Assembly: GCA_016188975.1 (NCBI GenBank)
Contig: JACPGQ010000008.1
Span: 17,812-81,811 of the forward strand
DNA: 64,000 nt
Reading direction: 5' to 3'
DNA from: Candidatus Levyibacteriota bacterium
GTDB taxonomy: Bacteria > Patescibacteriota > Microgenomatia > Levybacterales > UBA12049
The translations under genes were made by a program, and so were the position numbers. Shown here piece by piece: positions 2,449 through 57,672 of the stretch; position 1 is the first letter of the stretch; every line of letters begins with the position of its first letter. The notes beneath the pieces were generated by a model that was not told the origin of the DNA, did not search any database, and worked only from the letters and a program-made list of their open reading frames with translations.

Positions 2449-2508
2449 ATCGACTCCATACTAGCCTCTTGACAGCCTCGTGTCAATAGTGTAACCTAGG
2501 CTACTATC

Positions 2509-2781
2509 ATGGCTAAACACCGAAAGACTCGGAAAGAAAAAATCCGGTCTGAGCAGCGTCAACAGCACGTGATGACGCCTGCAGAAGTTGCATCACCGGC
2601 TCCGCAGGAAAAAACTCCATTTCAATTTACCTTCTCTGCGCAAACTACGCCTAAGACTACTCCTTCTCCCCTCCTTAAACAGAACGAGCATCATGCATTT
2701 GTTTGGCGTGATTTGCGTAAAATCGGTATTGTTACAACAAGTATCGTGGCTGTTGAATTAGTATTATTTCTTTTGATATAA
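2509..2781 (+). CDS. Hypothetical small protein with a C-terminal TM helix
   Basis: 90-aa ORF. A GC-rich hairpin follows the stop. Confidence 0.3.
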   Translation: MAKHRKTRKEKIRSEQRQQHVMTPAEVASPAPQEKTPFQFTFSAQTTPKTTPSPLLKQNEHHAFVWRDLRKIGIVTTSIVAVELVLFLLI

Positions 2782-2895
2782 AAAGGGGGGCTTGCCCCTC
2801 CGTAGCCCGACCTCATAGGGATGGAAACAAGAAAAAGTGAGGAATGAAACCCGCCTTCGTTAAAACTTCGGCGGGCGAAGGGGGGTGAATATACT

Positions 2896-3039
2896 ATGGC
2901 ACAAATGTATTGTGTAAAATGTCGAGCAAAGAGAGACGATCCAAATGCAACTCCTGTCACGATGAAGAACGGTAAACCAGCAATGAAAGGAAAATGCCCA
3001 GTTTGTGGTACAGGAATGTACAAGATTGGCAAAGCCTAA
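2896..3039 (+). CDS. Small zinc-ribbon protein (DUF5679-like), 47 aa. It is below the 60-aa track cutoff.
   Basis: MAQMYCVKCRAKRDDPNATPVTMKNGKPAMKGKCPVCGTGMYKIGKA has two CxxC pairs. A GGGGGGUG Shine-Dalgarno precedes it by 9 nt, and a clean terminator follows. Confidence 0.45.
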   Translation: MAQMYCVKCRAKRDDPNATPVTMKNGKPAMKGKCPVCGTGMYKIGKA

Positions 3040-3093
3040 TCTTTGAATCTCTCTTCTTGGGAGATCCTCAAAAGACTCTCAAGAAACACCTGA

Positions 3094-3123
3094 AAATCCC
3101 CCGCAAATAGCGGGGGATTTCAT
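3094..3123 (+). terminator. Intrinsic terminator hairpin (AAAATCCCCCGC-aaat-AGCGGGGGATTTCATTT)
   Basis: Perfect 9-bp GC stem followed by a T-rich tract, directly after the small zinc-ribbon ORF. Confidence 0.45.
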
Positions 3124-3124
3124 T

Positions 3125-3229
3125 TGTCATTGCGAGCCCTGAAAGGGCGAAGCAATCTCTTATAATAACTTGCTTCAATTGTATAAGATTGCTTCGTCGG
3201 TCGCCTTAGGCGACCTCCTCGCAATGACA
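3125..3229. mobile_element. MITE-like element, copy A. Terminal inverted repeats are TGTCATTGCGAG and CTCGCAATGACA.
   Basis: Perfect 12-bp terminal inverted repeats enclose an internal palindrome (GCGAAGCAATCT / AGATTGCTTCG). The same architecture recurs at 30306-30397, 57680-57803 and 57917-58024. Confidence 0.6.
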
Positions 3230-3886
3230 CGAGAAGTTCTATATAATACAAACGTGACTAAGGAAGAAAAAGTCAAAGAAATTATTAAACGGCTCCGCAA
3301 GGTATACCCCCACCCAAAAACTGCGCTCAATTTCTCAACCCCCTTAGATCTTCTCGTCGCGACAATCATGTCAGCACAAACCACTGATAAATTAGTCAAT
3401 ACGCTCACACCAGCATTATTTGCAAAATATAAAACTGCCAAAGATTACGCTGATGCTCCCGTGGAAGACATCACAAAACTGATTAGCAAAGTGAACTTTG
3501 CTAATAATAAAGCAAAGAATATTAAAGCAGCAGCACAAATTATCGTTGAGAAGCACGAAGGAAAAGTGCCTGATAACATGGAGGAGCTCGATGCGTTGCC
3601 TGGAGTCGCAAGAAAGACTGCCAATGTTGTCCTTGGCAATGCGTATCACAAAGCAGAGGGAATCGTCGTTGACACGCACGTCATGCGTTTATCCCAAAAG
3701 CTTGGGCTAACTGATAAAAAAGATCCGGAGAAAATCGAGCAGGATCTGATGCAAATAGTTCCAAAAGAAGATTGGATCGACTTCGCCCACATGCTTATCC
3801 TCTTCGGCCGCGAATACTGCCCTGCACGTCCTCACAAATGCGACGATTGCCCCCTCAGCGACCTCTGCCCCGATCAAAAAGTTTAG
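3224..3886 (+). CDS. nth: Endonuclease III (HhH-GPD DNA glycosylase with a C-terminal 4Fe-4S Cys cluster)
   Basis: HhH-GPD motifs (LPGVARKTANVVL) and C-x6-C-x2-C-x5-C at the C-terminus. I prefer the start at MTREVLYN (3224) over the longest-ORF start at 3170, which reads through the MITE. Confidence 0.85.
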   Translation: MTREVLYNTNVTKEEKVKEIIKRLRKVYPHPKTALNFSTPLDLLVATIMSAQTTDKLVNTLTPALFAKYKTAKDYADAPVEDITKLISKVNFANNKAKNIKAAAQIIVEKHEGKVPDNMEELDALPGVARKTANVVLGNAYHKAEGIVVDTHVMRLSQKLGLTDKKDPEKIEQDLMQIVPKEDWIDFAHMLILFGREYCPARPHKCDDCPLSDLCPDQKV

Positions 3887-3975
3887 CCTTCCACCTTCCA
3901 GGTGTAAAGCTAAAAATCCGTCCTCCGTCATTCTTGCTTGTGCAAAACCTCTTGAGTTATAATCCAATAAGAAAC

Positions 3976-4377
3976 ATGGCTGAAAAAGTAAGACTATTGG
4001 GCGAAATCTTTAGAGGACTCGGTTTCAATAGAGCAGGAATTCGTTTGGAAAAAGAGAGTGAGGCACTTTTAGAATCCAAAGACTTACCGTTTGATGACCC
4101 ACGTATCGTAATAGGACTTAGAGAAGGAGAACAAGACGACGCTCAAAGATTACCCGATCAATTGTACCTCGGAAATAGACCTGTTTTTACAGCATTACAA
4201 GCCACCGAAAAATTAGGTATCGATAAAAGCAGTACTAGTAAAGCGATTCAAAGAGGAGCATTAGAAGCATCAAGAATCGGAACGCAAATTTTTGTCGATG
4301 GAGAATCCTTGGGAAACTATCAAAGAAGACTATCCCTAAGCGTAAAACGGGGCCCCAAGCCTAAAGCTAGAAAGTAA
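3976..4377 (+). CDS. Small HTH (excisionase/MerR-like HTH_17) domain protein
   Basis: The start is at MAEKVRLL. The longer track ORF (3772) overlaps the nth 3' end. The HTH-like segment is ALQATEKLGIDKSSTSKAIQRGALEASRIGTQIFV, with a basic tail. Confidence 0.35.
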   Translation: MAEKVRLLGEIFRGLGFNRAGIRLEKESEALLESKDLPFDDPRIVIGLREGEQDDAQRLPDQLYLGNRPVFTALQATEKLGIDKSSTSKAIQRGALEASRIGTQIFVDGESLGNYQRRLSLSVKRGPKPKARK

Positions 4378-4379
4378 AT

Positions 4380-5006
4380 TTACATCAACTCATCCAGTAG
4401 AGGACTAATATCAATATTTTCTAGTGATTGTTTCACAAGCGGCTTTTGCGCAATTTGCGGCGTGCCGTCTTCCCAGGTCGGGCGATCTTCTTTGAAGAAA
4501 ATTCCAGTTGCTACTTTTTCTTTCTCTCCTTCTTTGACTGGTCTCCGGAGTGGCCACTCTTCTGCTCTCTCAAACGCCTGCATCTTATTGGTCATATCAT
4601 GGCCTTGCTCCTGAAGTTTGTAGACTCTCTCATAAAACCAAGCGAATGTGTTGTGGTGATTGAACGTCACACATGGCTGCATGGTGTCTATGATTGAGAA
4701 ACCTTTGTGTTTGATCGCCTCAACGAGTAGCTCCGTCTCCTGTTTGTTATCCCCAGCATACCCCCGAGCGACGAATGTTGCTCCAGCTGAAAGTGCTAGC
4801 TGCATCGCATTGACCGGTGCTTCAACGACCGGCACCGGAGTTGCTTTATTTTTCTCACCAATGTTAGTTGTGGGTGAGAATTGTCCGGTTGTTAATCCAT
4901 ATACCTGATTGTCATGAATAAGAAGTGTCAAATTCACATTTCTCCTGGCTGCATGTAGCCAGTGATTGCCTCCCTCTGCAAATTGATCGCCGTCTCCCCC
5001 AATCAC
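4380..5006 (-). CDS. korB: 2-oxoacid:ferredoxin oxidoreductase beta subunit, C-terminal TPP-binding part. A frameshift separates it from the N-terminal part.
   Basis: GDGD...GGNHWLHAARRNVNLTLLIHDNQVYGLTTGQFSPTT is the canonical TPP-binding region of KorB/PorB. The ORF starts at a GTG embedded in a GTGA overlap with the upstream ORF. Confidence 0.7.
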   Translation of the reverse strand: MIGGDGDQFAEGGNHWLHAARRNVNLTLLIHDNQVYGLTTGQFSPTTNIGEKNKATPVPVVEAPVNAMQLALSAGATFVARGYAGDNKQETELLVEAIKHKGFSIIDTMQPCVTFNHHNTFAWFYERVYKLQEQGHDMTNKMQAFERAEEWPLRRPVKEGEKEKVATGIFFKEDRPTWEDGTPQIAQKPLVKQSLENIDISPLLDELM

Positions 5007-6274
5007 GATAACAGTCCAATCCCCGAGACGAGAACGACCTCCCAGGGCTTCAAATCCAGCTGAACAATAGCGTTCTTCAAAGAAACCCAGATTCCGAAGT
5101 CTCCACAGTTATGGAGGATTGCGTTTTCCGTGACGTATGCGTTTTCTGTATCGACCTCAAGATTGTGTACTGGACCCTTATATCGTTGTTTTTCAATCTT
5201 TCTGATTGGTAAGAATGCAAAGTTTTGGGTAAGTAAGTGCCTTTGCGGTACAAATTCTTGCTCATTATTTACGACCAAACCTAAAATTTCTTTTAACTTA
5301 ATGCAATCTCTAGGGCCATACACCCATATGGAATAGGCCGTCTTGTGCATTCCATGAGCTCCCTGAACAGATACAGTTGGTAGAATTGCCTGTCGTAACA
5401 GTAGCATTTTTACCTGCTCTGTAAGCTTCTTCGAAATAGTCCTCAAGCAAGCACTATGCCTTTTTCTGCTTTTTCCTACCCAGCCGTCACCACGCCACAT
5501 ACCCTTAATAAGTTCTTTCTGCTTTTCTTTGGGCAAAAACATTACAAAATCTGGAATCTTTTTATTTGCAGCCCCTTTTCCAAACCACCCCTCAAACATT
5601 TCTGAGAGATATGATGAATTAAATGAAAGGTCAATCGTCTTTCTCCCTTTTCGGTATCGTTTTATTGAGAAGAGACCAAAAAGCTTCTGCATAATTGCTA
5701 CGACATCCTCTGCATACATTTCTTCTCGGGAATGAAAGGTAAAGTTGATAGATCTTCTATGGACGTACCCCTCCGCTATATAATAGCCTGCCAGCCGGAG
5801 AAATTCCGCTTCCAATGGAACACTTGAGGGTAATCCCTTACTTTTTGTATCTTTCTTCCTTTTTATGAAGGAAATATCTATATGCCCTATATCTTTCTCA
5901 GTTTTCAAAATTGGATATACTAGACGATCGCCTTTTTTAAGTTCTCTTGCCTCGACCCACTGTGATTGGTATTCAAGATTTTTACGTCTTAAATGTTCAT
6001 GTTTTATCGTCAATACAGGATGTTCAGGTGTTAGCGTAGTTTCTCCAAAATATCTTGAAACAAGCCGATACATAATGCCATCATGTATGTGAGATAAAGC
6101 TTCAGTAACTTCATGAGGCATTCCATCGCTACCAATAACTCTATCTCCCGTTTTGAGAGTAGATATCAATGCCGTAGAGGGATTAGTTTGAATATAAGTC
6201 TCTGGTATAGTACATCCTGGGCACCAATTCGGCTTGTCGTAGTCAATTTGTAAATCTTGTAGTGTCGTTGCCAT
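5003..6274 (-). CDS. korB: 2-oxoacid:ferredoxin oxidoreductase beta subunit N-terminal part, carrying a 369-aa LAGLIDADG intein
   Basis: The extein MATTLQDLQIDYDKPNWCPG is followed by an intein (CTIPETY...ENAILHN), then the extein CGDFGIWVSLKNAIVQLDLKPWEVVLVSGIG. Confidence 0.75.
   Translation of the reverse strand: MATTLQDLQIDYDKPNWCPGCTIPETYIQTNPSTALISTLKTGDRVIGSDGMPHEVTEALSHIHDGIMYRLVSRYFGETTLTPEHPVLTIKHEHLRRKNLEYQSQWVEARELKKGDRLVYPILKTEKDIGHIDISFIKRKKDTKSKGLPSSVPLEAEFLRLAGYYIAEGYVHRRSINFTFHSREEMYAEDVVAIMQKLFGLFSIKRYRKGRKTIDLSFNSSYLSEMFEGWFGKGAANKKIPDFVMFLPKEKQKELIKGMWRGDGWVGKSRKRHSACLRTISKKLTEQVKMLLLRQAILPTVSVQGAHGMHKTAYSIWVYGPRDCIKLKEILGLVVNNEQEFVPQRHLLTQNFAFLPIRKIEKQRYKGPVHNLEVDTENAYVTENAILHNCGDFGIWVSLKNAIVQLDLKPWEVVLVSGIGLLS
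5108..6214 (-). other. Intein with a LAGLIDADG homing-endonuclease domain, inserted between WCPG and CGDF of KorB
   Basis: Block A starts with Cys (CTIPETYI). Block B is TPEHPVLT. The two dodecapeptide motifs are LAGYYIAEGYV and MWRGDGWVG. Blocks F/G are VHNLEVDTENAYVTENAILHN, followed by the +1 residue Cys. Confidence 0.8.
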
Positions 6275-6280
6275 AATAAC

Positions 6281-6398
6281 TTTTCCTTGTACCCCTCTCC
6301 TTTTTAGGGGAGGGAATGTCCCGATTAAATCGGGACTAGGGTGAGGTCAACAATAACCTCAGACCGAGCCGATCCTCACTTTCGTGAGGATGACATCA
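6281..6398 (-). repeat. GC-rich multi-hairpin intercistronic element (CCCTCTCC..GGAGAGGG and GTCCCGATT.AATCGGGAC). A second copy is at 8745-8810.
   Basis: About 85% identity to the copy at 8745-8810 over roughly 55 nt. Both lie between cistrons of the same minus-strand operon. Confidence 0.55.
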
Positions 6399-8147
6399 TT
6401 AACCTAACAAAGACCTTACCTTTTCAATTATTTCTTCAGGATAAAATGGCCTCCCATCATATTTTCTTAAGCGATTTTCAAATGTATATCCTGTTTTCTC
6501 TCTGATAAGCCCTTCAAACTGTCCTGTCTTGTTATTTTCAATAACAAGTGTTTTCTTTGCCTTCCCTATCTCCAGCATAAAAGACTCAGCAAGAAACGGC
6601 TCCAGGTACGAAACCTGCAAAAAATTCACTGAGGTATTTTCTTTTTTTAACTGCCGTATTGCATCCAGAATAGCAAATTTTGTTGAGCCGAATGCTACGA
6701 TTGTCAAATTCGCATCAGAATCTCCCAGCAATTTCGGTGCCGAAAACTCGCCTGCAGCAATTGCGACATCGAGTTTTTTAAAACGCTTATCCATCATCTT
6801 GATTCTCATCTCAGATTCTTCATTGTAAAGACCCTTCTCGTCATGCTCATCAGAACCGGAAAGCCCGATTCCTCCTTGTTGTCCAGGCAAACTTCGAGGA
6901 GATATGCCGTCGTCGACAAGTGCATAACGTTTGTAATCTGCTTCTTGAGCCGCTTGCTGATCTGTAAGCAGTTTTCCTCTTTCAATTTTGAATTTTTCAT
7001 TTTGAACTTTGAATTCATCAATCGAAACTGTCGCATGTGATTCATTAATATGCTTATCAACAAGCACAATCACTGGAAGCTGATACTTGTCTGCCAGATT
7101 CAGCGCTTTCATCGTGTCCTCAAATGCTTCGAGCATATCTCCAGGAGCAACAACGATGCGGGGAAAGTCCCCTTGCGCTGCGTGCAGCATAAAACGGAGA
7201 TCTTCTTGCGATGTCCACGTCGGCATTCCCGTCGAAGGTCCCGGCCGCATACCCATGATGATGACAATTGGCGTTTCTGTCTGGGCTGCTAAACCAACAC
7301 CTTCTACCATCAATGAAAATCCTCCTCCCGATGTCGCTACCATGGACCGAGCTCCGGCAAATGACGCCCCAAGTGCCATGTTAATGCCTGCAATCTCATC
7401 CTCTGGTTCTTTAACGACGATATTGTACTTGAGGGCATGAGCAACCAGCGTCGTCATAATGGTATTGATCGGTGTCATCGGGTACATCGCTGCAAACTTA
7501 AGCCCTGCGCGGATTGCACCAAATGCGATTGCCTCTGCACCCCCGATAAGAAGCCTGGTTTGAGAACCAATTGGAATATCCGCGAGAAGTCCCTGTCCGA
7601 AATTCTCAACGACATAATCATATCCCGCTTTTGACGTAGTATTGTTCAATGCAACAACGTCATCCCCTTTTTTGCCAAACGTATCCTCCATAATTTTCTG
7701 GAGAACATCAAACTGTTTGTGGAAAAGCGCCAAAGATGCACCGACTGATACTGTATTAATCATCAGCCGATCAGCACCTACTTTTTTGGTAAGTTCCAGA
7801 AGTGGTACTGGAAACAGTCGAACGGAGACAGGAAACTGCTCAACAGTAAGTTTCAAAGCACTCGGGTCAAAAATGATTGCTGCGCCTTCGGAAAGCTCGT
7901 CTGTATGAAGCTTGACGGTATCAGGGTTCAGTGCAACCAGAATATCGACCGTTTTCTTCTGTGATGTAATTGCTTCATCTGATGCGCGAACGTAATACGC
8001 GTTGTGTCCTCCGCGGATGAGGGACGGGTATTCAACGTAGTCAAAAACGTGCAGGCCAAGACGCGTAAAAATCTTTGACATCATAAAGCCTGTGGTCATG
8101 ATGCCGTACCCTGCCTCACCGCCAATAAGCCACTGCAAGTCAATCAT
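6399..8147 (-). CDS. korA: 2-oxoacid:ferredoxin oxidoreductase alpha subunit with a fused N-terminal gamma domain
   Basis: 582 aa. The N-terminus is gamma-like (GGEAGYGIMTTG) and the alpha domain includes AMYPMTPINTIM and ATSGGGFSLMVEG. Confidence 0.85.
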   Translation of the reverse strand: MIDLQWLIGGEAGYGIMTTGFMMSKIFTRLGLHVFDYVEYPSLIRGGHNAYYVRASDEAITSQKKTVDILVALNPDTVKLHTDELSEGAAIIFDPSALKLTVEQFPVSVRLFPVPLLELTKKVGADRLMINTVSVGASLALFHKQFDVLQKIMEDTFGKKGDDVVALNNTTSKAGYDYVVENFGQGLLADIPIGSQTRLLIGGAEAIAFGAIRAGLKFAAMYPMTPINTIMTTLVAHALKYNIVVKEPEDEIAGINMALGASFAGARSMVATSGGGFSLMVEGVGLAAQTETPIVIIMGMRPGPSTGMPTWTSQEDLRFMLHAAQGDFPRIVVAPGDMLEAFEDTMKALNLADKYQLPVIVLVDKHINESHATVSIDEFKVQNEKFKIERGKLLTDQQAAQEADYKRYALVDDGISPRSLPGQQGGIGLSGSDEHDEKGLYNEESEMRIKMMDKRFKKLDVAIAAGEFSAPKLLGDSDANLTIVAFGSTKFAILDAIRQLKKENTSVNFLQVSYLEPFLAESFMLEIGKAKKTLVIENNKTGQFEGLIREKTGYTFENRLRKYDGRPFYPEEIIEKVRSLLG

Positions 8148-8374
8148 GGTATATACAAAGTATAGAGTGCGTTATGAAAAGAAACAACTCTTTCACTAAT
8201 CGGTAACCTTGCCAAAAATCATTCGAAAAAGTGAAGAGGATATCTATTTATTGCTCTTACTTGCAACAGGGATCTTTGCAGCCACAATTGTGACAAAGGA
8301 GAAATTTCAAATGTTTTTTTCAGTTTTCAATGAAAATTTAAACTTAATAACTGAGATCAGGCGGGCCTGCCCGT

Positions 8375-8465
8375 CCTAAATTGCAGCACGAGGCGTGAAC
8401 GAATAGTTCTGACCTGCCCGCTTCGCCTTGCGAAGCATGGCGGGCGGGAAAGCCGAGTGCTAAAA
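8375..8465. repeat. GC-rich palindromic repeat (CCTTGCGAAGCATGGCGGGCGG). A related inverted copy is at ~36615-36665.
   Basis: Contains a perfect hairpin (GCTTCGC-aag-GCGAAGC) flanked by CCCGCC/GGCGGG blocks. A roughly 20-nt core is shared with the mntH leader in opposite orientation. Confidence 0.4.
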
Positions 8466-8738
8466 TTAGGCGGGCCAAACTTGGCGAATTTCATTGCCCT
8501 GCTCATCAACTTCGATAATGATAATCGCATTGACAGGACAAGATTTTGCCGCATTCATGATGTTTACTTCCTCATCAGCAATATCAGAGTACGCAACAAA
8601 ATCTGATAAGGTACTTCCGTCTTTTTTCTTTACAACTGCCTTCCCCTCATTATCCAAGTCAAACGTATTTGGGGCTACCGCAACGCAAGACGCGGCACCG
8701 ATACAGGTATTTCGATCAACTTTTACTTTATAAGGCAT
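8466..8738 (-). CDS. 4Fe-4S ferredoxin
   Basis: CIGAASCVAVAP...SCPVNAI cysteine motifs. It lies between korAB and the suf genes. Confidence 0.7.
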   Translation of the reverse strand: MPYKVKVDRNTCIGAASCVAVAPNTFDLDNEGKAVVKKKDGSTLSDFVAYSDIADEEVNIMNAAKSCPVNAIIIIEVDEQGNEIRQVWPA

Positions 8739-8744
8739 ACGATG

Positions 8745-8810
8745 TTCTTCCTTTTAACCCTCTCCCTCAGGGAGAGGGAAGGTCCCGATGAATCGGGACC
8801 AGGGTGAGGG
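8745..8810 (-). repeat. Second copy of the GC-rich multi-hairpin intercistronic element
   Basis: An outer stem (ATAACCCTC/GAGGGTTAT) encloses the hairpins GTCCCGATTCATCGGGAC and CCCTCTCCCTGAGGGAGAGGG. Confidence 0.55.
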
Positions 8811-9209
8811 TTATCTCAAGCAGTCTTGCAACACTGCCCAGCCGAGTAAAGCGCACTTTCTTCTCGTCTCTGAAAGATCAATTCCAAGCAAATCTAGCAT
8901 ATTCTCCTGAGAAAATTTTGTCAACTCAGTTTTTTTCTTGTCTCTCACAAACTCTGTCAACATTGAGGTAGCTGCAATACTAATCGCACATCCATGTCCA
9001 ACAAACGTAATAGTATGTATCTTGCGCCCTTGGGGTGGACTCGAGGCTCCACCTGCGGAATTTTTCTCAAACCGTATGAACATTTCAATTTCATCACCAC
9101 AAAGGGGGTTGAGTTGTTTTGAGGAAACGTGATATGTTGCCAGCACCCCAAAATTCTGTGGGTTTTTGTAGTGATCTAGTATTTCTTCTTTATAGAGGTA
9201 GCTATCCAT
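8811..9209 (-). CDS. sufU: SUF-type Fe-S cluster scaffold protein (SufU/NifU-like)
   Basis: Three conserved Cys in the contexts NPLCGDE, GHGCAIS and RRKCA. Confidence 0.8.
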   Translation of the reverse strand: MDSYLYKEEILDHYKNPQNFGVLATYHVSSKQLNPLCGDEIEMFIRFEKNSAGGASSPPQGRKIHTITFVGHGCAISIAATSMLTEFVRDKKKTELTKFSQENMLDLLGIDLSETRRKCALLGWAVLQDCLR

Positions 9210-9213
9210 GACG

Positions 9214-9858
9214 TTATTCTAAGATGGTGATGCCGTTTGTCTCGTGTATAAAAAAATCGACGCCGTCTGACAATAGTTTAAAATACCCTGCATTGCTAAC
9301 GCGTACTTTCCTCGTCCTTGCAAATCCTGCATGAGTGAGAAACGCAGACATGAGACCTCCATGCGTCACGACCAATGCAGTTTTTCCAGCATATACAACA
9401 GCTATTTCCCGAACAAAAGTGATAAAGCGCGAGACGAGCTTCTCGTCACTTTCACCTCCTGGAATCAACGTATACCTAAATTTCTCATCATCTGACAATT
9501 TCTCATACTTCTCAAATATCTCCTTGAGCTCTTTACGAAGATCATCAGCTAGTCTCCCTTCATATTTTCCGTAATTATGCTCCCGAAGCAGCTGGGATGT
9601 ATCAACAGCGATCTTACGCTCAAGAGCAACGATCTCTGCAGTATGTTTGGCACGCAGAAGATCGGATGAAAACACTGCATCAAAATGTATTGCTAGAAGC
9701 GAGCGAGCTAACTGCCTGGCCTGTTCAAGTCCAAGGTCCGTGAGCGGAGAATCTTTATGTCCCTGGACCCTCCTTTGGACATTCCACTCAGTCTCTCCAT
9801 GGCGCGCCACGTACAATACACAATATTTAGTAGTTTGACGTTGGGTATGATTTATCAT
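9214..9858 (-). CDS. Histidine phosphatase family protein (phosphoglycerate mutase-like)
   Basis: RHGETEWN catalytic motif near the N-terminus and VVTHGG later. Confidence 0.65.
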   Translation of the reverse strand: MINHTQRQTTKYCVLYVARHGETEWNVQRRVQGHKDSPLTDLGLEQARQLARSLLAIHFDAVFSSDLLRAKHTAEIVALERKIAVDTSQLLREHNYGKYEGRLADDLRKELKEIFEKYEKLSDDEKFRYTLIPGGESDEKLVSRFITFVREIAVVYAGKTALVVTHGGLMSAFLTHAGFARTRKVRVSNAGYFKLLSDGVDFFIHETNGITILE

Positions 9859-9878
9859 AAATAATATATAAATATGTA

Positions 9879-11123
9879 TTAACGTACTGAAAAAACACGT
9901 TTCACATCTAAAATTCCTTTCAAAAATGCCTCTATATCCTCTTCATCATTATAAATGTTGAGACTTACCCGAACACTCGCTGGGACACCAAGTTTCTTGT
10001 GAAGTGGCAACGCACAATGGTGTCCAGCACGAACACAAATATTACTCTCTGCGAGAACTTGCGCTACATCATGAGCATGAATACCCGCTAAAGAAAACGA
10101 TATTACACCGCTCCGAACCGTCAAGTCAAGAGGCCCAAATACAATAACTCCCGAAATTGCACATAGTCTCTCAAGCAAATACTCAGTCAATCGCTTTTCA
10201 TGGGTACGAATTGTACCCATTCCAATTGCATTGAGGTAGTCTATTGCTGCGCCCAAACCAATGATTCCCTCAAGCGGCAAGGTTCCTGGTTCAAGTTTTT
10301 CCGGCACATTCTGAAGGGATGATTGAGAGAGAGTAACTTCTTTGATCATCTGACTTCCGTACAAAAGTGGATCTATAGTATTGAGTACATTTTCTCTTCC
10401 CCATATTACTCCCACCCCTGTAGGTGCTAACATTTTGTGACCAGAAAAAACCAAAAAATCACCTGCGCTATCCTGAACATCTACTTTCATATGAGGAACC
10501 GATTGAGCTGCATCGATAACAAGTACCGTGTCTTTTCGTTTTGTTACAAACTTGTTTCGTATTTTTTCAATACTGTTAATTGATCCAAGAACATTTGAAA
10601 CATGCGCAATCGAAATTACACTATAATTATTTGTACTAAGTGATTTATTTATGTTTCTTCCTGCCATAACTTTCTCAGTCACTATACCGCTTCTATCAAT
10701 TTCCAGGAAATCAAGTGGAGCGTTTTGTTGCGTTGTATAGTGTTGCCACGGAATAATATTTGAATGATGCTCCATTTCTGTAAGCAAAACGCCGCGGTTC
10801 TTGGAAAACGTTTTTCTGAGCGATGAAGCAAGGATATTAATCCCTTCTGTTGCACCATGGGTAAAGACAATTTCTTTCTCGTTTTTTGCATTGATAAATT
10901 GTGCCACTTTTTTCCGTACTTCTTCTACCCGCTCCGTAGCCTTCTCAGCGATTGCATAAATCCCTCGATGAATATTCGAATTGTATGATTCATAAAACTC
11001 TGAAACCGCATCAATTACGACTTGAGGTTTTTGACTTGTAGCTGCAGAGTCAAGATACACAAGAGGTTTACCATTCCTTTTTTTTCGAAAAATTGGAAAA
11101 TCTTTCTTATAGTTTCTCATCAC
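9879..11123 (-). CDS. sufS: Cysteine desulfurase SufS (class V aminotransferase fold)
   Basis: PLP-lysine context SGHKMLAPTGVG and active-site loop RAGHHCA. Confidence 0.85.
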   Translation of the reverse strand: MMRNYKKDFPIFRKKRNGKPLVYLDSAATSQKPQVVIDAVSEFYESYNSNIHRGIYAIAEKATERVEEVRKKVAQFINAKNEKEIVFTHGATEGINILASSLRKTFSKNRGVLLTEMEHHSNIIPWQHYTTQQNAPLDFLEIDRSGIVTEKVMAGRNINKSLSTNNYSVISIAHVSNVLGSINSIEKIRNKFVTKRKDTVLVIDAAQSVPHMKVDVQDSAGDFLVFSGHKMLAPTGVGVIWGRENVLNTIDPLLYGSQMIKEVTLSQSSLQNVPEKLEPGTLPLEGIIGLGAAIDYLNAIGMGTIRTHEKRLTEYLLERLCAISGVIVFGPLDLTVRSGVISFSLAGIHAHDVAQVLAESNICVRAGHHCALPLHKKLGVPASVRVSLNIYNDEEDIEAFLKGILDVKRVFSVR

Positions 11124-18167: not shown

Positions 18168-19145
18168 CTAGCTGATATTTTTTTGCTCGCTTGCGATATC
18201 TGCCTTAACCATCATTTCTACAAGTTCGGCAAATAAGGTTCGTGGCTTCCATCCAAGAACTTTCTTTGCTTTACTATAGTCACCAATTAGGTAATCGACC
18301 TCAGCAGGACGCATGAACTCATGCTTGTTTGGCACGACGTATTTTTTCCAATCAGAAATACCAACTGTCTTAAAAGCGAGCTGCACAAATTCCTCAACAC
18401 TATGGTTTTCACCTGTTGCGATAACATAATCATCTGGCTCATCTTGTTGCAGCATGAGCCACATTGCTTCGACATAATCACCTGCAAATCCCCAGTCCCG
18501 TTTCGCGTCCAGGTTCCCAAGTTCTATGGTCTTCTGCTTACCCAGATGAATTCTCGCAACTCCATGCGTGATTTTTCTCGTCACAAACTCCAAGCCACGC
18601 CTCGGAGACTCGTGGTTAAAAAGAAGCCCTGAGCTGGCAAAAAGATTATAACTCTCCCGATAGTTAAGCGTAATGTAGTGTCCGTAGACTTTTGCTACCC
18701 CGTAGGGACTTCGGGGATAAAATCTCGTCGTTTCCTTCTGCGGCGTCTCAGTAACTTTACCAAACATTTCAGAAGATGAAGCCTGGTAAAATTTGATCTT
18801 TGGATTCACGCTCCGGATCGCCTCAAGCATTCTGGTAACTCCAATTGCCGTAAATTCTCCTGTCAAAACCGGCTGCGTCCATGACGTTTTAACAAATGAC
18901 TGAGCTGCAAGGTTATATACTTCATCCGGATTTGACTCCCTTATCGCTTCTGTGAGTGAGCTCTGGTCTAAAAGGTCTCCTGAGAGGAGTGTTATTTTAT
19001 CTTGTATCTGTTTTATATTGCCAAAATTTTGCGTGCTTGTTCGTCTTGTGAGGCCGTAAACGGTATAGCCTTTATCAAGTAGCAATTCTGCAAGATACGA
19101 TCCGTCTTGCCCCGTAACACCCGTGATAAGCGCTGTTTTTGCCAT
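18168..19145 (-). CDS. gmd: GDP-mannose 4,6-dehydratase
   Basis: [19 protein letters not shown] and [19 protein letters not shown] are GMD signatures. Confidence 0.85.
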
Positions 19146-19157
19146 CGAGTTCTTATT

Positions 19158-20117
19158 TTAAGCAATCCTTCGCCAATAGTCCAGTACGTCTCGGAGTGAT
19201 CTATCAATTGAAATAGTCGTCTCCCAACCAGTTTGTTTTCGAAGCTTTGTATTATCGGTCCTATTGTCGGGAATATCAACTGGCATGAAGCGGGACTGAT
19301 CTGTCTCAATCGTAATTTTCTCTGTTGAAAAACTGACGAGCTTCTCAAGAATTACCTTCATTTCATAAGACACGCCCGATCCGATATTATAGACATCACC
19401 GGGTGTACCCTTTTCTGCCAGAAGTACATATGCCTTCACAATATCCCGTACATCAGTAAAATCGCGTTTTGCTGAAAGCTTTCCAACTCGAAGGACAGGT
19501 TCTTGCTTCCTTTTTTCAATAAGGGCAATTTGCTGCGCAAACGTCGAGACAGCATAGGCAGTTTTTTGTCCGGGACCAATGTGATTAAAGGGCCGGACAC
19601 GCACAATATGCTGGTCATATGTAAGAAAGTACTGAAGACCAAGATAATCCTGGGTAATTTTTGATACTGCGTACGGGCTTACCGGATTCATTTGTGTTGC
19701 TTCGTCTATCGGTAAATCTGATTCCTTCACGATTCCATAAACCTCAGCTGATGAAACTATGACGATCCTGCTTGCGGACAATCCGGCCTTACGGATCGCT
19801 TCAAGAAGGTGGATTTGCCCAGTCACGTTCGTTGTAAAAGTGAGCGAAGGATCCTTAAAACTCTGCGCAGGAGACGCAAGAGCAGCAAGATGAAAAATGA
19901 CATCGGGCTTTATGGAAGAAATGACAGAATCAATTGCCTGCCCGTCAGTAAGATCAACTTTGTGAAGATGTAATTGTGGGGCGATATCGGCAATATTCTC
20001 AAGGCTCTGCTCAGCGTGATAGGTGCCCGAGACAGCATACACACCCTCGTTGAGAAGCTGCCTCGCAAGAAAATTTCCTGCAAAACCTGAAATGCCTGTG
20101 ATAAAAGCCTTTTTCAT
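19158..20117 (-). CDS. rmd: GDP-4-keto-6-deoxy-D-mannose reductase-like SDR (Rmd-type)
   Basis: Extended SDR (AFITGISGFAGNFLA, YAVSK) immediately downstream of gmd. The assignment to Rmd rests on synteny. Confidence 0.55.
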   Translation of the reverse strand: MKKAFITGISGFAGNFLARQLLNEGVYAVSGTYHAEQSLENIADIAPQLHLHKVDLTDGQAIDSVISSIKPDVIFHLAALASPAQSFKDPSLTFTTNVTGQIHLLEAIRKAGLSASRIVIVSSAEVYGIVKESDLPIDEATQMNPVSPYAVSKITQDYLGLQYFLTYDQHIVRVRPFNHIGPGQKTAYAVSTFAQQIALIEKRKQEPVLRVGKLSAKRDFTDVRDIVKAYVLLAEKGTPGDVYNIGSGVSYEMKVILEKLVSFSTEKITIETDQSRFMPVDIPDNRTDNTKLRKQTGWETTISIDRSLRDVLDYWRRIA

Positions 20118-21412
20118 CGGCCTACTCCAATGTAGGAAAATCCAAGTTCTCGCATTTTTGCAGGGTCGTAGACATTGCGGCCATCTATAACAAGCGGTGA
20201 TTTCATAAGCTTTTTTAATTTCTGGAGATCAATTTCTCGAAACTCATCCCATTCTGTTACAAGTATCATTAGATCAGCATCAGCAACGCATGAGTAGAGA
20301 TCCGAGGCAAAACTCAAGCCACTTCCCGCAAGTATCCGCTTCGCATTTCCCATTGCAATCGGGTCATATGCCTTAATCTTTGCTCCCTTTGCAGTAAGTT
20401 GGTTGATGATGACAAGCGATGGTGCATCACGCATATCATCTGTGTCTGGCTTAAAAGAAAGCCCTAATACTGCAATTGTTTTTCCTTTAACATCGTGTTT
20501 GAGCATTTTCTCCGCTTTCTTAACAAGTGAGAGCATCATGTGCTTGTTAATTGCCTCGACTTCATGAAGGAGAGAAAAATCGTAACCATGTTGTTTTGCG
20601 ATGGCAATAAGCGCTTTCACGTCTTTAGGAAAACAACTACCACCATATCCTGCCCCAGCATTGAGAAATGACTTTCCGATCCGGGCATCATACCCTATAC
20701 CTTCAAGAACTTTTGTCCCGTCTGCTCCGACATTTTCGGACAGATTTGCAATTGCATTGGCGTAGGAGATTTTTGTGGCGAGAAAAGCATTGGATGCGTA
20801 TTTGATCATTTCTGCCGTCTCAATGGTAGTAAGAACCTGCACTGACTCAATTGGTGAGTGGAGAGCAAGCATGACTTCTCTTGCCTTCTCTGAATCTATA
20901 CCTATAACAACTCTGTCTGGATGTCGTGTGTCACTAATTGCCTGACCTTCACGGAGAAACTCAGGAATAGATGCGACGTCAAATGTCGCTTTGAGGGGTT
21001 TTACCTTTGTAATAATCTCAAGAATTTTTTTATTGGTCCCAACGGGGACCGTACTTTTTGTTGCAATGACAGTGTATCCTGAAAGGTGTTTCCCAATTTT
21101 TTCAGCAACGTCAAAAACGACAGACAAATCAGCTTCGCCACTGTCTTTTGGGGGAGTACCAACCGCAATAAAAACGGCATCTGAAGACGGGACTGAAGGT
21201 TTGTAATCAAGCGTAAAGAGGAGTCTTTTTGCTTTGACGTTGCGTTTGACGAGTTCCTCAAGCCCCGGCTCATAGATCGGAATAATTCCCTTCTTGAGGT
21301 TTTCAATTTTTTCTGGCGTGTGTCCTATGACCCAAACAGTATTACCCAGATCAGCAAAAACGGCCGCTGAGACAAGACCAACGTACCCATGACCGACAAA
21401 CGTGATAGTCAT
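20114..21412 (-). CDS. ugd: UDP-glucose 6-dehydrogenase family protein
   Basis: The N-terminal Rossmann fold reads ITFVGHGYVGLVSA. The catalytic Cys context is GGSCFPKD. Confidence 0.75.
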   Translation of the reverse strand: MTITFVGHGYVGLVSAAVFADLGNTVWVIGHTPEKIENLKKGIIPIYEPGLEELVKRNVKAKRLLFTLDYKPSVPSSDAVFIAVGTPPKDSGEADLSVVFDVAEKIGKHLSGYTVIATKSTVPVGTNKKILEIITKVKPLKATFDVASIPEFLREGQAISDTRHPDRVVIGIDSEKAREVMLALHSPIESVQVLTTIETAEMIKYASNAFLATKISYANAIANLSENVGADGTKVLEGIGYDARIGKSFLNAGAGYGGSCFPKDVKALIAIAKQHGYDFSLLHEVEAINKHMMLSLVKKAEKMLKHDVKGKTIAVLGLSFKPDTDDMRDAPSLVIINQLTAKGAKIKAYDPIAMGNAKRILAGSGLSFASDLYSCVADADLMILVTEWDEFREIDLQKLKKLMKSPLVIDGRNVYDPAKMRELGFSYIGVGR

Positions 21413-21464
21413 ATTGTGATTTTCACAGATTGATAGCGGATGATCACGGATCAGTGAAAATCAG

Positions 21465-22349
21465 CTATAAATCAGTGGCAATTTTTTTAAGTCCTTCTTC
21501 AAAAGTCATCATTTGCACACCGAGATGTTTGATTTTATCATTTTTTAGCGTGAGATTGAAAGGCCTTGGCGCACGGCCATGGAAAAATTCAGCTCTTTTT
21601 ACTTTGGTAATGGTTGGATTTTCAAGTAAAAATGCTCTTGCTATAGCAATACACGCATCAAATGGTGAGAGTGACGAGCTCCCAACGACATGGATTATTC
21701 CCTCAAATCGCTTTCGTATGATTGCGTCAATTCCTTTTGCAATATCATCAATATATGTTGGCGTCATGAGATGGTCAGTGACTGCTTTCACTTCTTGCCC
21801 AGCCCTAAGCCGAGAAAGAAGAGCACGAACAAAATCCGATTTTGCATCAAACTTTGCCCGGTATGGATACGAAATTCGCATAATAACATTCGAGGCTGAC
21901 GCAGATTGCGTTCGTTTCTCTCCCTCGTATTTTGTAGTTGCATACCAATTTGTCGGGTTGGGGGCATCCTCCTCACCATATCCGCCTGAAGGCGTATTTG
22001 CACCATCGAAAACAAAATCTGTCGAAACGTAGATCATCCTATGCCCTGCATCTGAGCATGCACGAGCGACATTTTCTGTGCCGAGTACATTTATCCTCCA
22101 TGCGTCGCCATTCTCTCCCATTGATTGATCTTTCTCACACGCATCAACATCTGCTTTTGCCGCAAGATGCAGCAGAGTTGCCCCCGAATTCTCACGGAGT
22201 GGCGAAAGTGTTTCAGGTCTTGTGATATCAACCCCTGTTTCCAAGCTGAAACTAGTGACGTCGTAGGTTACTGAAAGTAATTCTTTGAGCCGTGAACCAA
22301 CAAGCCCAGACCCACCAAGCATGACAAGTTTTTCCCTAGCCGTTCCCAT
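21465..22349 (-). CDS. rfbD: dTDP-4-dehydrorhamnose reductase
   Basis: RmlD-like SDR (LVMLGGSGLVGS, YATTK). Confidence 0.75.
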   Translation of the reverse strand: MGTAREKLVMLGGSGLVGSRLKELLSVTYDVTSFSLETGVDITRPETLSPLRENSGATLLHLAAKADVDACEKDQSMGENGDAWRINVLGTENVARACSDAGHRMIYVSTDFVFDGANTPSGGYGEEDAPNPTNWYATTKYEGEKRTQSASASNVIMRISYPYRAKFDAKSDFVRALLSRLRAGQEVKAVTDHLMTPTYIDDIAKGIDAIIRKRFEGIIHVVGSSSLSPFDACIAIARAFLLENPTITKVKRAEFFHGRAPRPFNLTLKNDKIKHLGVQMMTFEEGLKKIATDL

Positions 22350-35245: not shown

Positions 35246-35261
35246 AGGAGTGTATTGTAGC

Positions 35262-37126: not shown

Positions 37127-37847
37127 CTACGAGAGGTATGGGGAAATCTCCGTTGTTATCTTTCCGTTTGTTAGGAGAAAATCAGAGGAAAAGACGTTCC
37201 ATGAGTCACCAGTCAGACTTTGGATTGTTGCACCGGCTTTTTCTGCAATCAGAAGAGCAGCGCCAATAGCTACCGCGGCTTTCAATTGCACGAACGTTCG
37301 GCAAGACTTTTTCAAGGATCCTGAGTGTCTGCATTCTTTTTTGAATATCCCATGACCAATCGCAACACAGGAGTGCTTGCTTGAGTGTCTCAGTTGACGA
37401 AACATGAATCGGAGTATAGTTGAGATAGGCTTGGCTCTCGTCTTGTTGAGCCCAATACAATTTCTTCTCAAGGGGAAGGTATACAACTCCTACTTTAGGT
37501 TTTCCTAAACTGACAAGCCCAACTGAAATTGCAAAATGCTTGCTTCCTCGCGAAAAATTTGTTGTCCCATCAATCGGGTCAATAACCCACAGGTTTTCTT
37601 TCTCAATAAAAGTCGTATATTCAGATGGTGCGGTCTCCTCAGTCAAAAACTCAGTTGTAGGGAATTTTCGGAAAAGTTCCTCCCGAAGAAATGCGTCGAT
37701 GGCATCATCTGCCTCTGTTGCGAAATCAACCCCTCCTTTACTGTGTGTTTTGAATCCTTGTTTGAGAAAGCTATAAATACGCTCACCCGCAGCGGTAACG
37801 ACAGCGACAACTTGCTCTCTTATCGAAGTGAGTTCTCCATCCATCAC
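37127..37847 (-). pseudogene. Inositol monophosphatase-family (SuhB/CysQ-like) gene split by a +1 frameshift
   Basis: Frame 1 carries DPIDGTTNF and ends just after ...RAIESRGS. The WD-AAG / EAGG region (AIGAALLIAEKAGATIQSLTGD) continues in the +1 frame (ORF 37127..37486). The ~23-aa AALDL.YVAAGR segment normally between them is absent. Confidence 0.5.
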
Positions 37848-50334: not shown

Positions 50335-50530
50335 AAAAAACCCCGATTTCTCGGGGTGCAAAACTCCACATAAACAATCTGCAGACTTTCCCTTCTTTCA
50401 TCCCGACTATACGGTCGACGCTGGGATATACCAGACTCGTGTCCAACACTTAGGTCAGACTCGTGGGTTTAGAACGTTAAAGCGAAGCTTTTTACGTTCC
50501 TATACCACCGATTAGGATTTCCACCTTGCC
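50335..50530 (-). promoter_or_regulatory. FMN riboswitch (RFN element) with an intrinsic terminator/sequestrator abutting the ribE start
   Basis: On the minus strand: CCUUCGGGGCAAGGUGGAAAUCCUAAUCGGUGGUAUA...GUCUGGUAUAUCCCAGCGUCGACCGUAUAGUCGGGAUGAAAGAAGG. This matches the conserved RFN P1-P6 core (UUCGGGGCAGGGUGAAAUUCCC...GCCGACGGUAUAGUCCGGAUG.GAGAG). It is followed by CACCCCGAGAAAUCGGGGUUUUUU. Confidence 0.8.
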
Positions 50531-50644
50531 CCGAAGGAATGTGCGTTAATTGTACCATAAAAATTCCAGGATTTCTTAAGATTTAATTTTATGCATGCGG
50601 TAGCAAAAATGGATGTTTGATTGATAAATCAATCTTAAAGGTTA

Positions 50645-50790
50645 GGGTAATAATGGCCCCGCACCTTGTTCGGGATCATTGTTATACCGCTGCGCTATGC
50701 TAATGCAGGATAATGGCCCTGCGATTTGCTCAGGACCATTCGTCTATCAAATTCCATTAAGCCAATTGTGGATAATGGCATTTTTTGAAA
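50645..50790. repeat. Cluster of related hairpin repeats carrying a GGATAATGGC core (2-3 copies)
   Basis: Copies at ~50651-50697 and ~50701-50745 form hairpins (AATGGCCCCG..CGGGATCATT and AATGGCCCTG..CAGGACCATT). A third GGATAATGGCA lies at 50772. Similar sequence occurs at the 3' coding end of secA (53190-53246). Confidence 0.4.
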
Positions 50791-50822
50791 TGCTATCATA
50801 ATAGGGCGCCTCATACAATTCA

Positions 50823-56489: not shown

Positions 56490-57672
56490 TTATTTTTTAG
56501 AAGTAATGATATCTTTTCCAATATATTTTCTTAAAACTTCAGGAATAATAACGCTACCATCTTTCTGTTGGTAATTTTCTACAATAGCAACAAGTGTACG
56601 TCCAATGGCAAATGCAGTGCCGTTTAAAATATTCACAATTTTTTTTTCATTGCCGTCTTGATACTTGATATTCAACCTCCGCGATTGAAAATCTGTAATT
56701 GTTGATGCAGATACACATTTTGACAACCTGGTACGGAATATCCAACGACTGGAAAAATTTTTCTTCCAAAGAAACAAAATACTCATGCTCTTTGTCATCC
56801 TCTCCTTGTGGGACATAGGATACCATCTCTACTTTGTCAAACTGATGGACTCTGATAATGCCTTTTGTGTCTTTTCCATAACTTCCCGCTTCACGACGAA
56901 ATGCTGTTGAGAATCCGACATAACGACGGGGCAAATCTTTTTTGAGAAAAACTTCATTCTTATGCATGGGTACAATGCTATGCTCTGCTGTCCCGACCAA
57001 CACGAGGTCATCTTTGGGAATCTGAAACATATCTTCATCTCCTCCGTGTTCCATATATCCCATTGCACGCATCGAATCTGTCTTGATGAGGACTGGCGGC
57101 ACAACCGGAATAAATCCTTCTTTTATCAGCGTTTCGAATGCAAATTGTACAAGCGCAAATTCCAGGAGCGCTGCTTCGTTTTTGAGATATGCAAACCGGG
57201 CCCCTGAGACTTTTGCGGCTCGGTCGATATCAATAATGTCTAGTATCTGTCCGAGCTCAACATGGTCTTTTGGAGTAAATGAAAGTTTTGTTGGCTCTTT
57301 ATGTTTGCGGACAACTTCGTTTTCTTTATCGTTTTTCCCAACCTTTACATCGGGCTTTGCGGGATTGGCCACTTGGCGAAGCAGCATATCCAACTCTTCT
57401 TTGAGAGCAGCCAATACATGTTCTTCTTTCTCAAGCTTGTCTTTTAACTCTCTTCCTTTTTCTCTATATGAATTTCTTTCCTCTTCAACCGCGTTTGACG
57501 CGGCTTTCGTAAATGCATTTCGCTCTTCACGAAGACCCTGCACTTTTTGCAAAACGCCAAAATACGCCCTCTCTATCTCTAAAAGGTGGTTGATATCAAC
57601 AGGATAATTCTTGTCTTTCGCAGACTTTGAGACAAGCGATGGGTTCTCGCGGATATACTTTATATCGATCAT
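56490..57672 (-). pseudogene. serS: Seryl-tRNA synthetase interrupted by an internal ~75-nt deletion plus a +1 frameshift
   Basis: ORF 56647..57672 encodes SerS up to ...DIPYQVVKMC. ORF 56490..56816, in the +1 frame, encodes TDFQSRRLNIKY...LNGTAFAIGRTLVAIVENYQQKDGSVIIPEVLRKYIG. The canonical TGDLGFSAAKTYDLEVW.P.Q..YREISSCSN block between these is not encoded in any frame. Confidence 0.6.

What the first reader, a model, noticed from the sequence alone, without database searches (positions are those of the whole stretch)
4990..5035. korB is additionally split by a +1 frameshift, and the ~35-aa segment around the GIGC(S) cluster ligand is not encoded
After the intein, the extein reads ...KPWEVVLVSGIGLLS and then stops (TGA at 5003-5005). 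The TPP-binding continuation (DWTVIVIGGDGDQFAEGGNHW...) is in the +1 frame and starts inside a GTGA overlap.

Joining the two frames requires one extra G in the run TCGGGGATT (~5026-5029). Even then the protein reads VSG-DWTVIVIGGDGD. It lacks the roughly 35 residues (GIGCSS...NPDL) that canonical KorB/PorB proteins place between these motifs, including the third Cys ligand of the [4Fe-4S] cluster.

Possible explanations are a homopolymer miscall in the assembly, a decaying gene, or a divergent beta subunit.
Basis: seen in the sequence. Interest (0 to 1): 0.5.

Follow-up and report, generated by a model that had tools for sequence, protein, structure and literature searches.

The report
106-base assembly gap breaking korB
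The broken korB gene is missing one 106-base stretch that six other assemblies of the same bacterium all contain, and because similar gaps break two other genes on this contig, it is most likely an assembly error rather than biology.

Summary
On the minus strand the intein-containing korB ORF (6274..5003) ends ...VSGIGLLS*. The TPP-binding remainder (…GDWTVIVIGGDGD…, to 4380) lies in another frame, and about 34 conserved residues are not encoded.

These are one lesion, not two. Six independent per-run assemblies of the same organism (99.9-100% identical DNA) carry an intact 666-aa intein-KorB. The window differs from them by a single 106-nt gap at 5017|5016. That is 35 codons plus 1 nt. It removes [34 protein letters not shown], including the third [4Fe-4S] cysteine and the HGR motif, and it shifts the frame. 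No G-run miscall is involved, and relatives at 64-76% identity all keep the segment.

The same contig lacks 83 nt of the essential serS gene at 56713|56712, against two intact independent assemblies. It probably also lacks about 74 nt of an inositol-monophosphatase gene near 37268. Everything else compared is essentially identical.

The window matches a deposited Candidatus Levybacteria MAG. That MAG probably comes from a project that scaffolded MEGAHIT contigs with IDBA-UD.

Best explanation: sequence lost at contig joins, an assembly artefact (about 0.85). A real private deletion is about 0.1. Interest is low.

The parts
6399..8147 (-). korA, the 2-oxoacid:acceptor oxidoreductase alpha subunit. 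It is intact at 582 aa.
   Evidence: TIGR03710 OAFO_sf scores 617.5 bits against a cut-off of 482.75. The same protein is encoded in Logan contigs L001-L003.
6215..6274 (-). korB N-extein, 20 aa (MATTLQDLQIDYDKPNWCPG). It carries the first cluster cysteine, C18.
   Evidence: tblastn of the spliced extein residues 1-21 maps to 6274..6212. Alignment to 5b46_B places C18 at Cys12.
5108..6214 (-). Intein of 369 aa with a LAGLIDADG homing-endonuclease domain. It begins CTIPETY, ends ILHN, and is followed by a +1 Cys.
   Evidence: Pfam LAGLIDADG_3 at 1.3e-16, plus Intein_splicing (35.1 bits, just under its 35.8 cut-off). tblastn of the intein residues 1-369 maps to 6214..5108. The same insertion is present in hundreds of KorB homologues.
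5017..5107 (-). korB C-extein, first part (CGDFGIWVSLKNAIVQLDLKPWEVVLVSGI + first base of the G51 codon). It is in frame with the intein.
   Evidence: Translation. It is identical to the intact copies up to base 5017.
5016..5017 (-). Junction where 106 nt are absent. The missing sequence is GCTGCTCGAG...AATAGCGGTTT, covering extein residues C52-G85 plus parts of the G51 and L86 codons. Placement is ambiguous by 1 nt (G).
   Evidence: MAFFT alignment of the window with L001 shows a single 106-column gap after window base 5017. The same segment is present in L001, L008, L010, L011, L012 and L013.
5003..5016 (-). Out-of-frame tail of the upstream ORF, ending the G51 codon as GGA and then reading LLS-TGA.
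4380..5016 (-). korB C-extein, second part, from the third base of the L86 codon (…TVIVIGGDGDQFAEGGNHW… to the stop). It holds the TPP-binding GDGD motif, the fourth cysteine C201, and the PFO_beta_C domain. It is in a different frame from the upstream part.
   Evidence: Pfam TPP_enzyme_C and PFO_beta_C. PRK11866 positions 86-279. 100% identical to L001 3539-5700.
8466..8738 (-). Single-cluster 4Fe-4S ferredoxin gene upstream of korA, the likely electron acceptor. It is intact.
   Evidence: Pfam Fer4_15 at 2.2e-14.
56712..56713 (-). Second junction of the same kind. 83 nt are absent from serS (seryl-tRNA synthetase), removing [28 protein letters not shown] and shifting the frame.
   Evidence: Alignment with L016 shows one 83-column gap. 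L017 is identical to L016 over this stretch, and both encode an intact 421-aa SerRS. The two window fragments match tRNA-synt_2b profile positions 8-105 and 112-179.
37267..37269 (-). Probable third junction. About 74 nt (25 codons minus 1 nt) are absent from an inositol-monophosphatase-family gene, with a frame change.
   Evidence: tblastn of homologue P0122 (70% identity, 263 aa) maps residues 1-192 to 37844..37269 in frame -3 and residues 218-262 to 37267..37133 in frame -1. The Pfam Inositol_P match stops at profile position 186 of 271. No near-identical intact reference was available.

Best explanation
The window is a deposited metagenome-assembled contig of a Candidatus Levybacteria (CPR) bacterium. 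In it, short stretches of true genome sequence were lost where assembler contigs were joined. At 5017|5016 exactly 106 nt of korB are missing. Because 106 = 35 codons + 1, this one loss produces both the 'frameshift' and the 'missing 35 residues'.

The organism's real korB is an uninterrupted 666-aa gene. After intein splicing it gives a normal 297-aa KorB with all four [4Fe-4S] cysteines (C18, C21, C52, C201), the HGR motif and the GDGD TPP motif.

Shown:
- the exact 106-nt difference;
- the intact sequence in six independent assemblies;
- an equivalent 83-nt loss in serS;
- the probable third loss in the IMPase gene.

Inferred:
- that the cause is the contig-joining or scaffolding step, for example joins made with a mis-estimated overlap or gap and no N filler;
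- that each loss marks a contig boundary. The sites lie about 32 kb and 19 kb apart.
For: (1) Six independent per-run Logan assemblies span the site: SRR12113424, -430, -384, -420, -385 and -383. They are 99.8-100% identical to the window over 2.6-7.5 kb, and all contain the 106 nt. Four of them have a called 666-aa ORF.
(2) No contig on record encodes the 423-aa or 208-aa products that the deleted form would give.
(3) The flanks are otherwise undamaged. The 2,162 nt downstream are 100% identical, and there is one substitution in 3.4 kb upstream.
(4) The same contig lacks 83 nt of serS, an essential single-copy gene, against 2 of 2 independent assemblies. This loss also shifts the frame and sits in the catalytic core.
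(5) About 74 nt of a conserved IMPase block are probably missing too, again with a frame shift.
(6) The truncated IMPase product, including its frameshifted tail, is identical to NCBI protein HYV40_01235 of a Candidatus Levybacteria MAG on an 84,659-nt contig. So the breaks are in the deposited assembly.
(7) The likely source project assembled with MEGAHIT and then scaffolded the contigs with the IDBA-UD scaffolder (PMC7906910).
(8) There is only 1 nt of microhomology and no hairpin bridging the end points (z = -1.6). Nothing suggests a slippage mechanism.
(9) All close relatives keep the segment almost unchanged.
Against: No reads were available, so the junction was never tested directly against the data the MAG was built from. 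I could not show that the seven Logan runs include the sample(s) used for this MAG, nor that they belong to the same BioProject. That link rests on locus-tag and accession-number proximity. The window contains no N runs, so it is not a simple unfilled scaffold gap, and the exact software step that dropped the bases is conjecture. The third case (IMPase) rests on a 70%-identical homologue only. A synonymous G/A polymorphism inside the 106 nt shows that the population is heterogeneous, so a rare deleted allele is conceivable.
Confidence: 0.85

Rival explanations
1. This is a genuine, very recent 106-bp deletion in this strain's korB. It would be a loss-of-function allele or pseudogene private to the assembled population. 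The 2-oxoacid:ferredoxin oxidoreductase would be inactive, because the beta subunit lacks the third cluster cysteine and the HGR motif and is split into two frames.
For: The deletion is in the deposited sequence. Strain heterogeneity exists: a G/A SNP lies within the segment and other SNPs occur between runs. CPR bacteria have reduced metabolisms, and gene loss is common in them (general knowledge).
Against: None of the six assemblies that span the site carries the deletion, and no deleted-form product is on record. Apart from one substitution 3.2 kb upstream, just 5' of the korA start codon, there is no other mutation in the operon. The same contig has an equivalent frameshifting gap in the essential serS and probably in an IMPase gene. 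Three inactivating deletions of 74-106 nt, with almost no point mutations, do not look like natural decay.
Confidence: 0.1
2. A single-base homopolymer miscall in the GGGG run, on top of a lineage-specific short KorB that naturally lacks the GIGC...NPDL block.
For: Adding one base to the window sequence does restore a continuous frame reading VSG-DWTVIV.
Against: The G run is identical in the intact copies. The difference is one 106-nt block. Relatives at 64-76% identity all contain [24 protein letters not shown]...GL(T/K)VIVIGGDGD. The frame-corrected short protein scores 247.2, below the TIGR02177 cut-off of 261.9, while the intact one scores 328.7. The short protein would have only three of the four cluster cysteines.
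Confidence: 0.01
3. A programmed recoding event or DNA rearrangement, such as ribosomal frameshifting, bypassing, or a segment encoded elsewhere and supplied in trans.
For: None beyond the existence of the frame break.
Against: The missing 106 nt and its peptide are not found anywhere else in the 64-kb window. Same-organism and related genes are single continuous ORFs. Recoding cannot supply 34 residues that are not encoded.
Confidence: 0.01

Closest known systems
Two-subunit (alpha-beta)2 2-oxoacid:ferredoxin oxidoreductase beta subunit, for example Sulfolobus tokodaii StOFOR1/2 (PDB 5B46, 5B47, 5B48) and Magnetococcus marinus OFOR (6N2N)
   Same: The intact spliced protein aligns end to end with 5b46_B (E = 8.5e-67). 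Its only four cysteines, C18, C21, C52 and C201, fall on chain positions 12, 15, 46 and 197. The Cys12-Cys15 CXGC loop ligates the single [4Fe-4S] cluster (PMC5020499). The operon has korA (fused gamma/alpha type, 582 aa) and a neighbouring ferredoxin gene.
   Different: The gene carries a 369-aa LAGLIDADG intein in the CPG|C motif. In this window's copy, 106 nt covering C52 and the HGR motif are absent and the frame is broken.
Intein-containing KorB/OFOR beta subunits of CPR bacteria, DPANN archaea and Thaumarchaeota (database proteins P0001-P0120; some are named 2-oxoacid:ferredoxin oxidoreductase subunit beta)
   Same: Same architecture, intein position and length of about 650-700 aa. The closest are 64-72% identical, and one is named Candidatus Levybacteria.
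   Different: All of them are continuous ORFs that keep the GIGC...HGR...GL(T/K)VIV block. Only the window's copy lacks it.
Local mis-assemblies or scaffold-join errors in short-read metagenome-assembled genomes
   Same: Short losses of tens to about 100 nt occur at isolated points of an otherwise base-perfect contig. They break unrelated genes, including an essential one, and are contradicted by independent assemblies. The likely pipeline used MEGAHIT contigs plus IDBA-UD scaffolding.
   Different: No N filler and no duplicated k-mer marks the joins, so the exact step that lost the bases is not identified.

Membership tests
2-oxoacid:acceptor oxidoreductase beta subunit (TIGR02177 PorB_KorB) | Whole-protein score above the curated cut-off of 261.9 bits | tested here: not met
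The window's copy fails. The intact allele from L001, after removing the intein, scores 328.7 and passes.
2-oxoacid:acceptor oxidoreductase beta subunit (TIGR02177 PorB_KorB) | Four cysteine ligands of the proximal [4Fe-4S] cluster (CxxC, GIGC, and a C-terminal C) | tested here: not met
   The window encodes C18 and C21 in the upstream ORF and C201 in the downstream frame. C52 (GIGC) lies in the missing 106 nt. The intact allele has all four.
2-oxoacid:acceptor oxidoreductase beta subunit (TIGR02177 PorB_KorB) | TPP-binding GDGD...N motif and the PFO_beta_C domain | tested here: met
   Pfam TPP_enzyme_C (7.1e-19) and PFO_beta_C (2.5e-19) match the downstream frame.
2-oxoacid:acceptor oxidoreductase beta subunit (TIGR02177 PorB_KorB) | One continuous reading frame next to korA | tested here: not met
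   There are two frames, 6274..5003 and 5016..4380. The gene is continuous at 666 aa in L001, L008, L010 and L011.
Intein (Hint splicing domain plus LAGLIDADG endonuclease) | Cys1, a C-terminal His-Asn, a +1 Cys/Ser/Thr, and Hint and endonuclease domains | tested here: met
   The sequence reads C-TIPETY...ILHN|C. Pfam LAGLIDADG_3 scores 61 bits and passes its cut-off. Intein_splicing scores 35.1 against a cut-off of 35.8, so it is borderline. Splicing activity was not tested.
Programmed ribosomal frameshift or recoding site | The frame break is conserved in orthologues and in other isolates of the same organism | tested here: not met
   Six same-organism assemblies and all 18 homologues inspected are in a single frame.
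Genuine pseudogene (natural deletion) | The lesion is reproducible in independent sequence data of the organism | tested here: not met
   0 of 6 independent assemblies show it, and no deleted-form products are on record. Read-level data from the MAG's own sample could not be tested.
Assembly or scaffold-join artefact | Several comparable lesions on the same contig in unrelated or essential genes, contradicted by independent assemblies | tested here: met
   korB lacks 106 nt, serS lacks 83 nt, and the IMPase gene probably lacks about 74 nt.
Assembly or scaffold-join artefact | No reads span the junction, and read pairs across it have stretched insert sizes | not testable with these tools
   There was no access to reads.

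The most novel reading that the evidence does not exclude
The three gaps of 74-106 nt are real and coexist in one Levybacteria sub-population. That would be a lineage carrying frameshifting deletions in korB, serS and an IMPase gene, surviving by complementation from co-infecting intact genomes or from its host. It would then be a 'defective' or cheater genotype maintained at high abundance.
Probability: 0.03. Interest if true: 0.5.

Novelty: not a real feature. Interest (0 to 1): 0.07.

Why it matters
The main value is as a quality flag. This deposited CPR MAG contig contains at least two, and probably three, silent sequence losses of about 100 nt that break genes. Taken at face value they would lead to false conclusions: that korB is decaying or has a divergent cluster-less beta subunit, that serS is absent, and that this Levybacteria lacks OFOR-dependent metabolism. 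The organism's real korB is an ordinary intein-containing OFOR beta subunit. Metabolic reconstructions and pseudogene counts for MAGs built with the same pipeline may need the same check.

Tried and rejected
- I scanned genome contigs and metagenome contigs for the 25-nt flank GAGGTCGTTCTCGTCTCGGGGATTG. There were 0 hits in both, so there is no further copy there of either allele.
- Exact-product look-ups found nothing on record for the 423-aa and 208-aa fragments, for the transketolase, Nramp, 463-aa and 125-aa ORFs, or for P0121. As a result the IMPase gap could not be checked at DNA level, and the MAG record was not retrieved.
- I looked for the missing 106 nt or its peptide elsewhere in the window, and for a second OFOR operon. 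Neither was found.
- I folded the intact region as DNA to look for a hairpin that would bring the deletion ends together. It was not significant (z = -1.59).
- I examined direct repeats at the end points. There is only 1 nt of microhomology (G), and a nearby GGGGAT repeat does not coincide with the junction.
- I screened other overlapping same-strand open frames for further breaks and ran Pfam on the candidates. No additional clear case emerged beyond korB, serS and the IMPase gene.
- Contig L014 (SRR12113422) ends 15 nt short of the junction, at window 5001. I considered this a possible sign of a graph bubble, but rejected it as uninformative because the end does not coincide with the junction or with the SNP.
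- I searched the He et al. supplement for the SRR numbers and found none. The two 42%-GC Levybacteria MAGs listed there, both from a co-assembly, are only candidates for the source.

Full report
**1. The observation**

The region is coding on the minus strand. The operon consists of a single-cluster ferredoxin (8738..8466), korA (8147..6399, 582 aa, TIGR03710 at 617 bits) and korB.

korB starts at 6274. After 20 residues (…NWCPG) it runs into a 369-aa LAGLIDADG intein (6214..5108), which starts CTIPETY and ends ILHN. It then resumes as CGDFGIWVSLKNAIVQLDLKPWEVVLVSGIG and reads LLS-TGA, with the stop at 5005..5003. The remainder, GDWTVIVIGGDGDQFAEGGNHW… down to the stop at 4382..4380, is in another frame.

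Profile coordinates show what is missing. The upstream piece covers PRK11866 positions 20-52 and the downstream piece covers 86-279. For TIGR02177 the ranges are 6-38 and 72-263. So 33 profile positions are not encoded.

**2. What it really is**

An exact-product look-up of KorA returned contigs from independent per-run assemblies (Logan) of public sequencing runs. In these the next gene is a continuous 666-aa protein with intein, TPP_enzyme_C and PFO_beta_C domains.

Contig L001 (SRR12113424, 5.7 kb) differs from the window in only two ways: one substitution and a single block of 106 nt that the window lacks after base 5017. The block is GCTGCTCGAGTAAATTGCCG…GCCAATAGCGGTTT. It covers the last two bases of the Gly51 codon, 34 whole codons ([34 protein letters not shown]) and the first two bases of the Leu86 codon.

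Because 106 = 3×35+1, this one gap explains both the missing residues and the frame change. No G-run error is needed, and the G run is identical in the intact copies.

A look-up of the downstream 133-aa gene brought in more contigs. In all, six different runs span the site (SRR12113424, -430, -384, -420, -385, -383), and all six contain the segment. Four of them have a called 666-aa ORF. A seventh contig stops 15 nt short of the junction and is uninformative. The only variation inside the segment is a synonymous G/A (CCG/CCA) polymorphism, split 3:3 among the runs. The products that the deleted form would encode (423 aa and 208 aa) are not on record anywhere.

**3. Consequence for the protein**

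With the intein removed, the intact allele gives a 297-aa protein that aligns over nearly its full length with the beta subunits of S. tokodaii OFOR (5b46_B, E = 8.5e-67). Its only four cysteines (18, 21, 52, 201) fall on chain positions 12, 15, 46 and 197. The Cys12-Cys15 CXGC loop is documented as a ligand of the single [4Fe-4S] cluster (PMC5020499). That positions 46 and 197 are the other two ligands is my recollection of the StOFOR1 Cys-mutant work and follows from conservation.

The intact protein passes TIGR02177 at 328.7 bits against a cut-off of 261.9. Eighteen homologues were inspected, including nine full-length ones at 64-72% identity, one of them named Candidatus Levybacteria. All keep GIGC(S/G)…HGR…GDGD. 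The 'divergent short beta subunit' reading is therefore refuted.

**4. Real deletion or artefact?**

I compared other parts of the window with independent contigs.

- Windows 1-2491, 2855-10271 and 19145-21494 match at 99.8-100% with no indel other than the korB gap.
- Across 50491-57922 there is a second gap. 83 nt are absent after base 56713 inside serS, against two independent contigs that are identical to each other and encode an intact 421-aa seryl-tRNA synthetase. The lost residues, [28 protein letters not shown], are in the class-II catalytic core, and the frame shifts.
- A third case is probable. The inositol-monophosphatase-family ORF (37847..37206) stops matching its Pfam profile at position 186 of 271. 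A 70%-identical, 263-aa homologue aligns residues 1-192 to 37844..37269 in one frame and residues 218-262 to 37267..37133 in another. So 25 conserved residues (about 74 nt) are absent.

This gives three frameshifting losses of 74-106 nt, one of them in an essential single-copy gene, on a contig that is otherwise essentially base-identical to independent assemblies. That is not how natural gene decay looks. It is how local assembly or join errors look.

Two further points fit this reading. There is only 1 nt of microhomology at the korB junction, and no significant hairpin bridges it (z = -1.6).

**5. Source**

The truncated IMPase product, including its out-of-frame tail, is 100% identical to an NCBI protein named 'MAG: hypothetical protein HYV40_01235 [Candidatus Levybacteria bacterium]' on an 84,659-nt contig. 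The breaks are therefore in the deposited MAG.

Homologues from the same batch of locus tags and the SRR numbers point to the Northern California groundwater project (PRJNA640378). This link is an inference and is not proven; the SRR numbers were not found in the held supplement. That study assembled with MEGAHIT and then scaffolded the contigs with the IDBA-UD scaffolding function (PMC7906910).

The three sites lie about 32 kb and 19 kb apart, which is compatible with contig lengths. My working mechanism is that bases were dropped where contigs were joined with a mis-estimated overlap or gap. The exact step is conjecture, and the window contains no Ns.

**6. Other checks**

The 106 nt and its peptide are not elsewhere in the window, and there is no second OFOR operon within these 64 kb. 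The flank is absent from the GTDB-representative and JGI collections. A screen of other overlapping same-strand frames found no further clear break.

**7. Verdict**

The lesion is a single 106-nt gap private to this assembly. It is most likely an assembly artefact (about 0.85), less likely a real private deletion (about 0.1). The organism's true korB is an ordinary member of the widespread intein-containing OFOR beta-subunit group. Interest is low, and the practical value is as a warning about this MAG.

Noticed in passing
window 56712-56713 (serS fragments 57672..56647 and 56828..56490, minus strand): 83 nt of seryl-tRNA synthetase are absent relative to two independent contigs, L016 and L017, which are identical to each other here. 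The essential gene is split into two frames. This is the same kind of lesion as in korB.
   Followed up: yes
window ~37268 (ORF 37847..37206, continuing in another frame to ~37133, minus strand): The inositol-monophosphatase-family gene lacks about 25 conserved residues (about 74 nt) and changes frame. The deposited MAG annotates the truncated 212-aa product as a hypothetical protein (HYV40_01235). It was checked only against a 70%-identical homologue.
   Followed up: partly
window 5108-6214 (minus strand): A 369-aa LAGLIDADG intein is inserted inside the CPGC cluster-binding motif of KorB. The intein's +1 nucleophile cysteine is therefore itself a [4Fe-4S] ligand (C21). The same insertion occurs in hundreds of KorB homologues from CPR bacteria, DPANN archaea and Thaumarchaeota.
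   Followed up: partly
L001 3452 (inside the 106 nt missing from the window): A synonymous CCG/CCA (Pro) polymorphism is split 3:3 among the six runs that span the site. This shows that at least two strains coexist, which could have contributed to a contig break here.
   Followed up: partly
window 2495-2542 versus L006 (SRR12113385): There are eight substitutions and one indel within about 50 nt at the start of the small 90-aa ORF (2509..2781), and L006 diverges completely beyond that point. This is a strain-variable or recombined spot next to an otherwise identical sequence.
   Followed up: no
window 8174: The window has A on the plus strand where SRR12113424, -383 and -422 have G. The site lies 27 nt upstream of the korA start codon. 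It is the only substitution between the window and L001 in 5.6 kb.
   Followed up: no
window 34238-35350 (minus strand): A peptide chain release factor gene (PCRF and RF-1 domains) has an open frame that overlaps the preceding Nramp gene by about 98 nt. I did not examine whether it is prfB with its usual programmed +1 frameshift.
   Followed up: no
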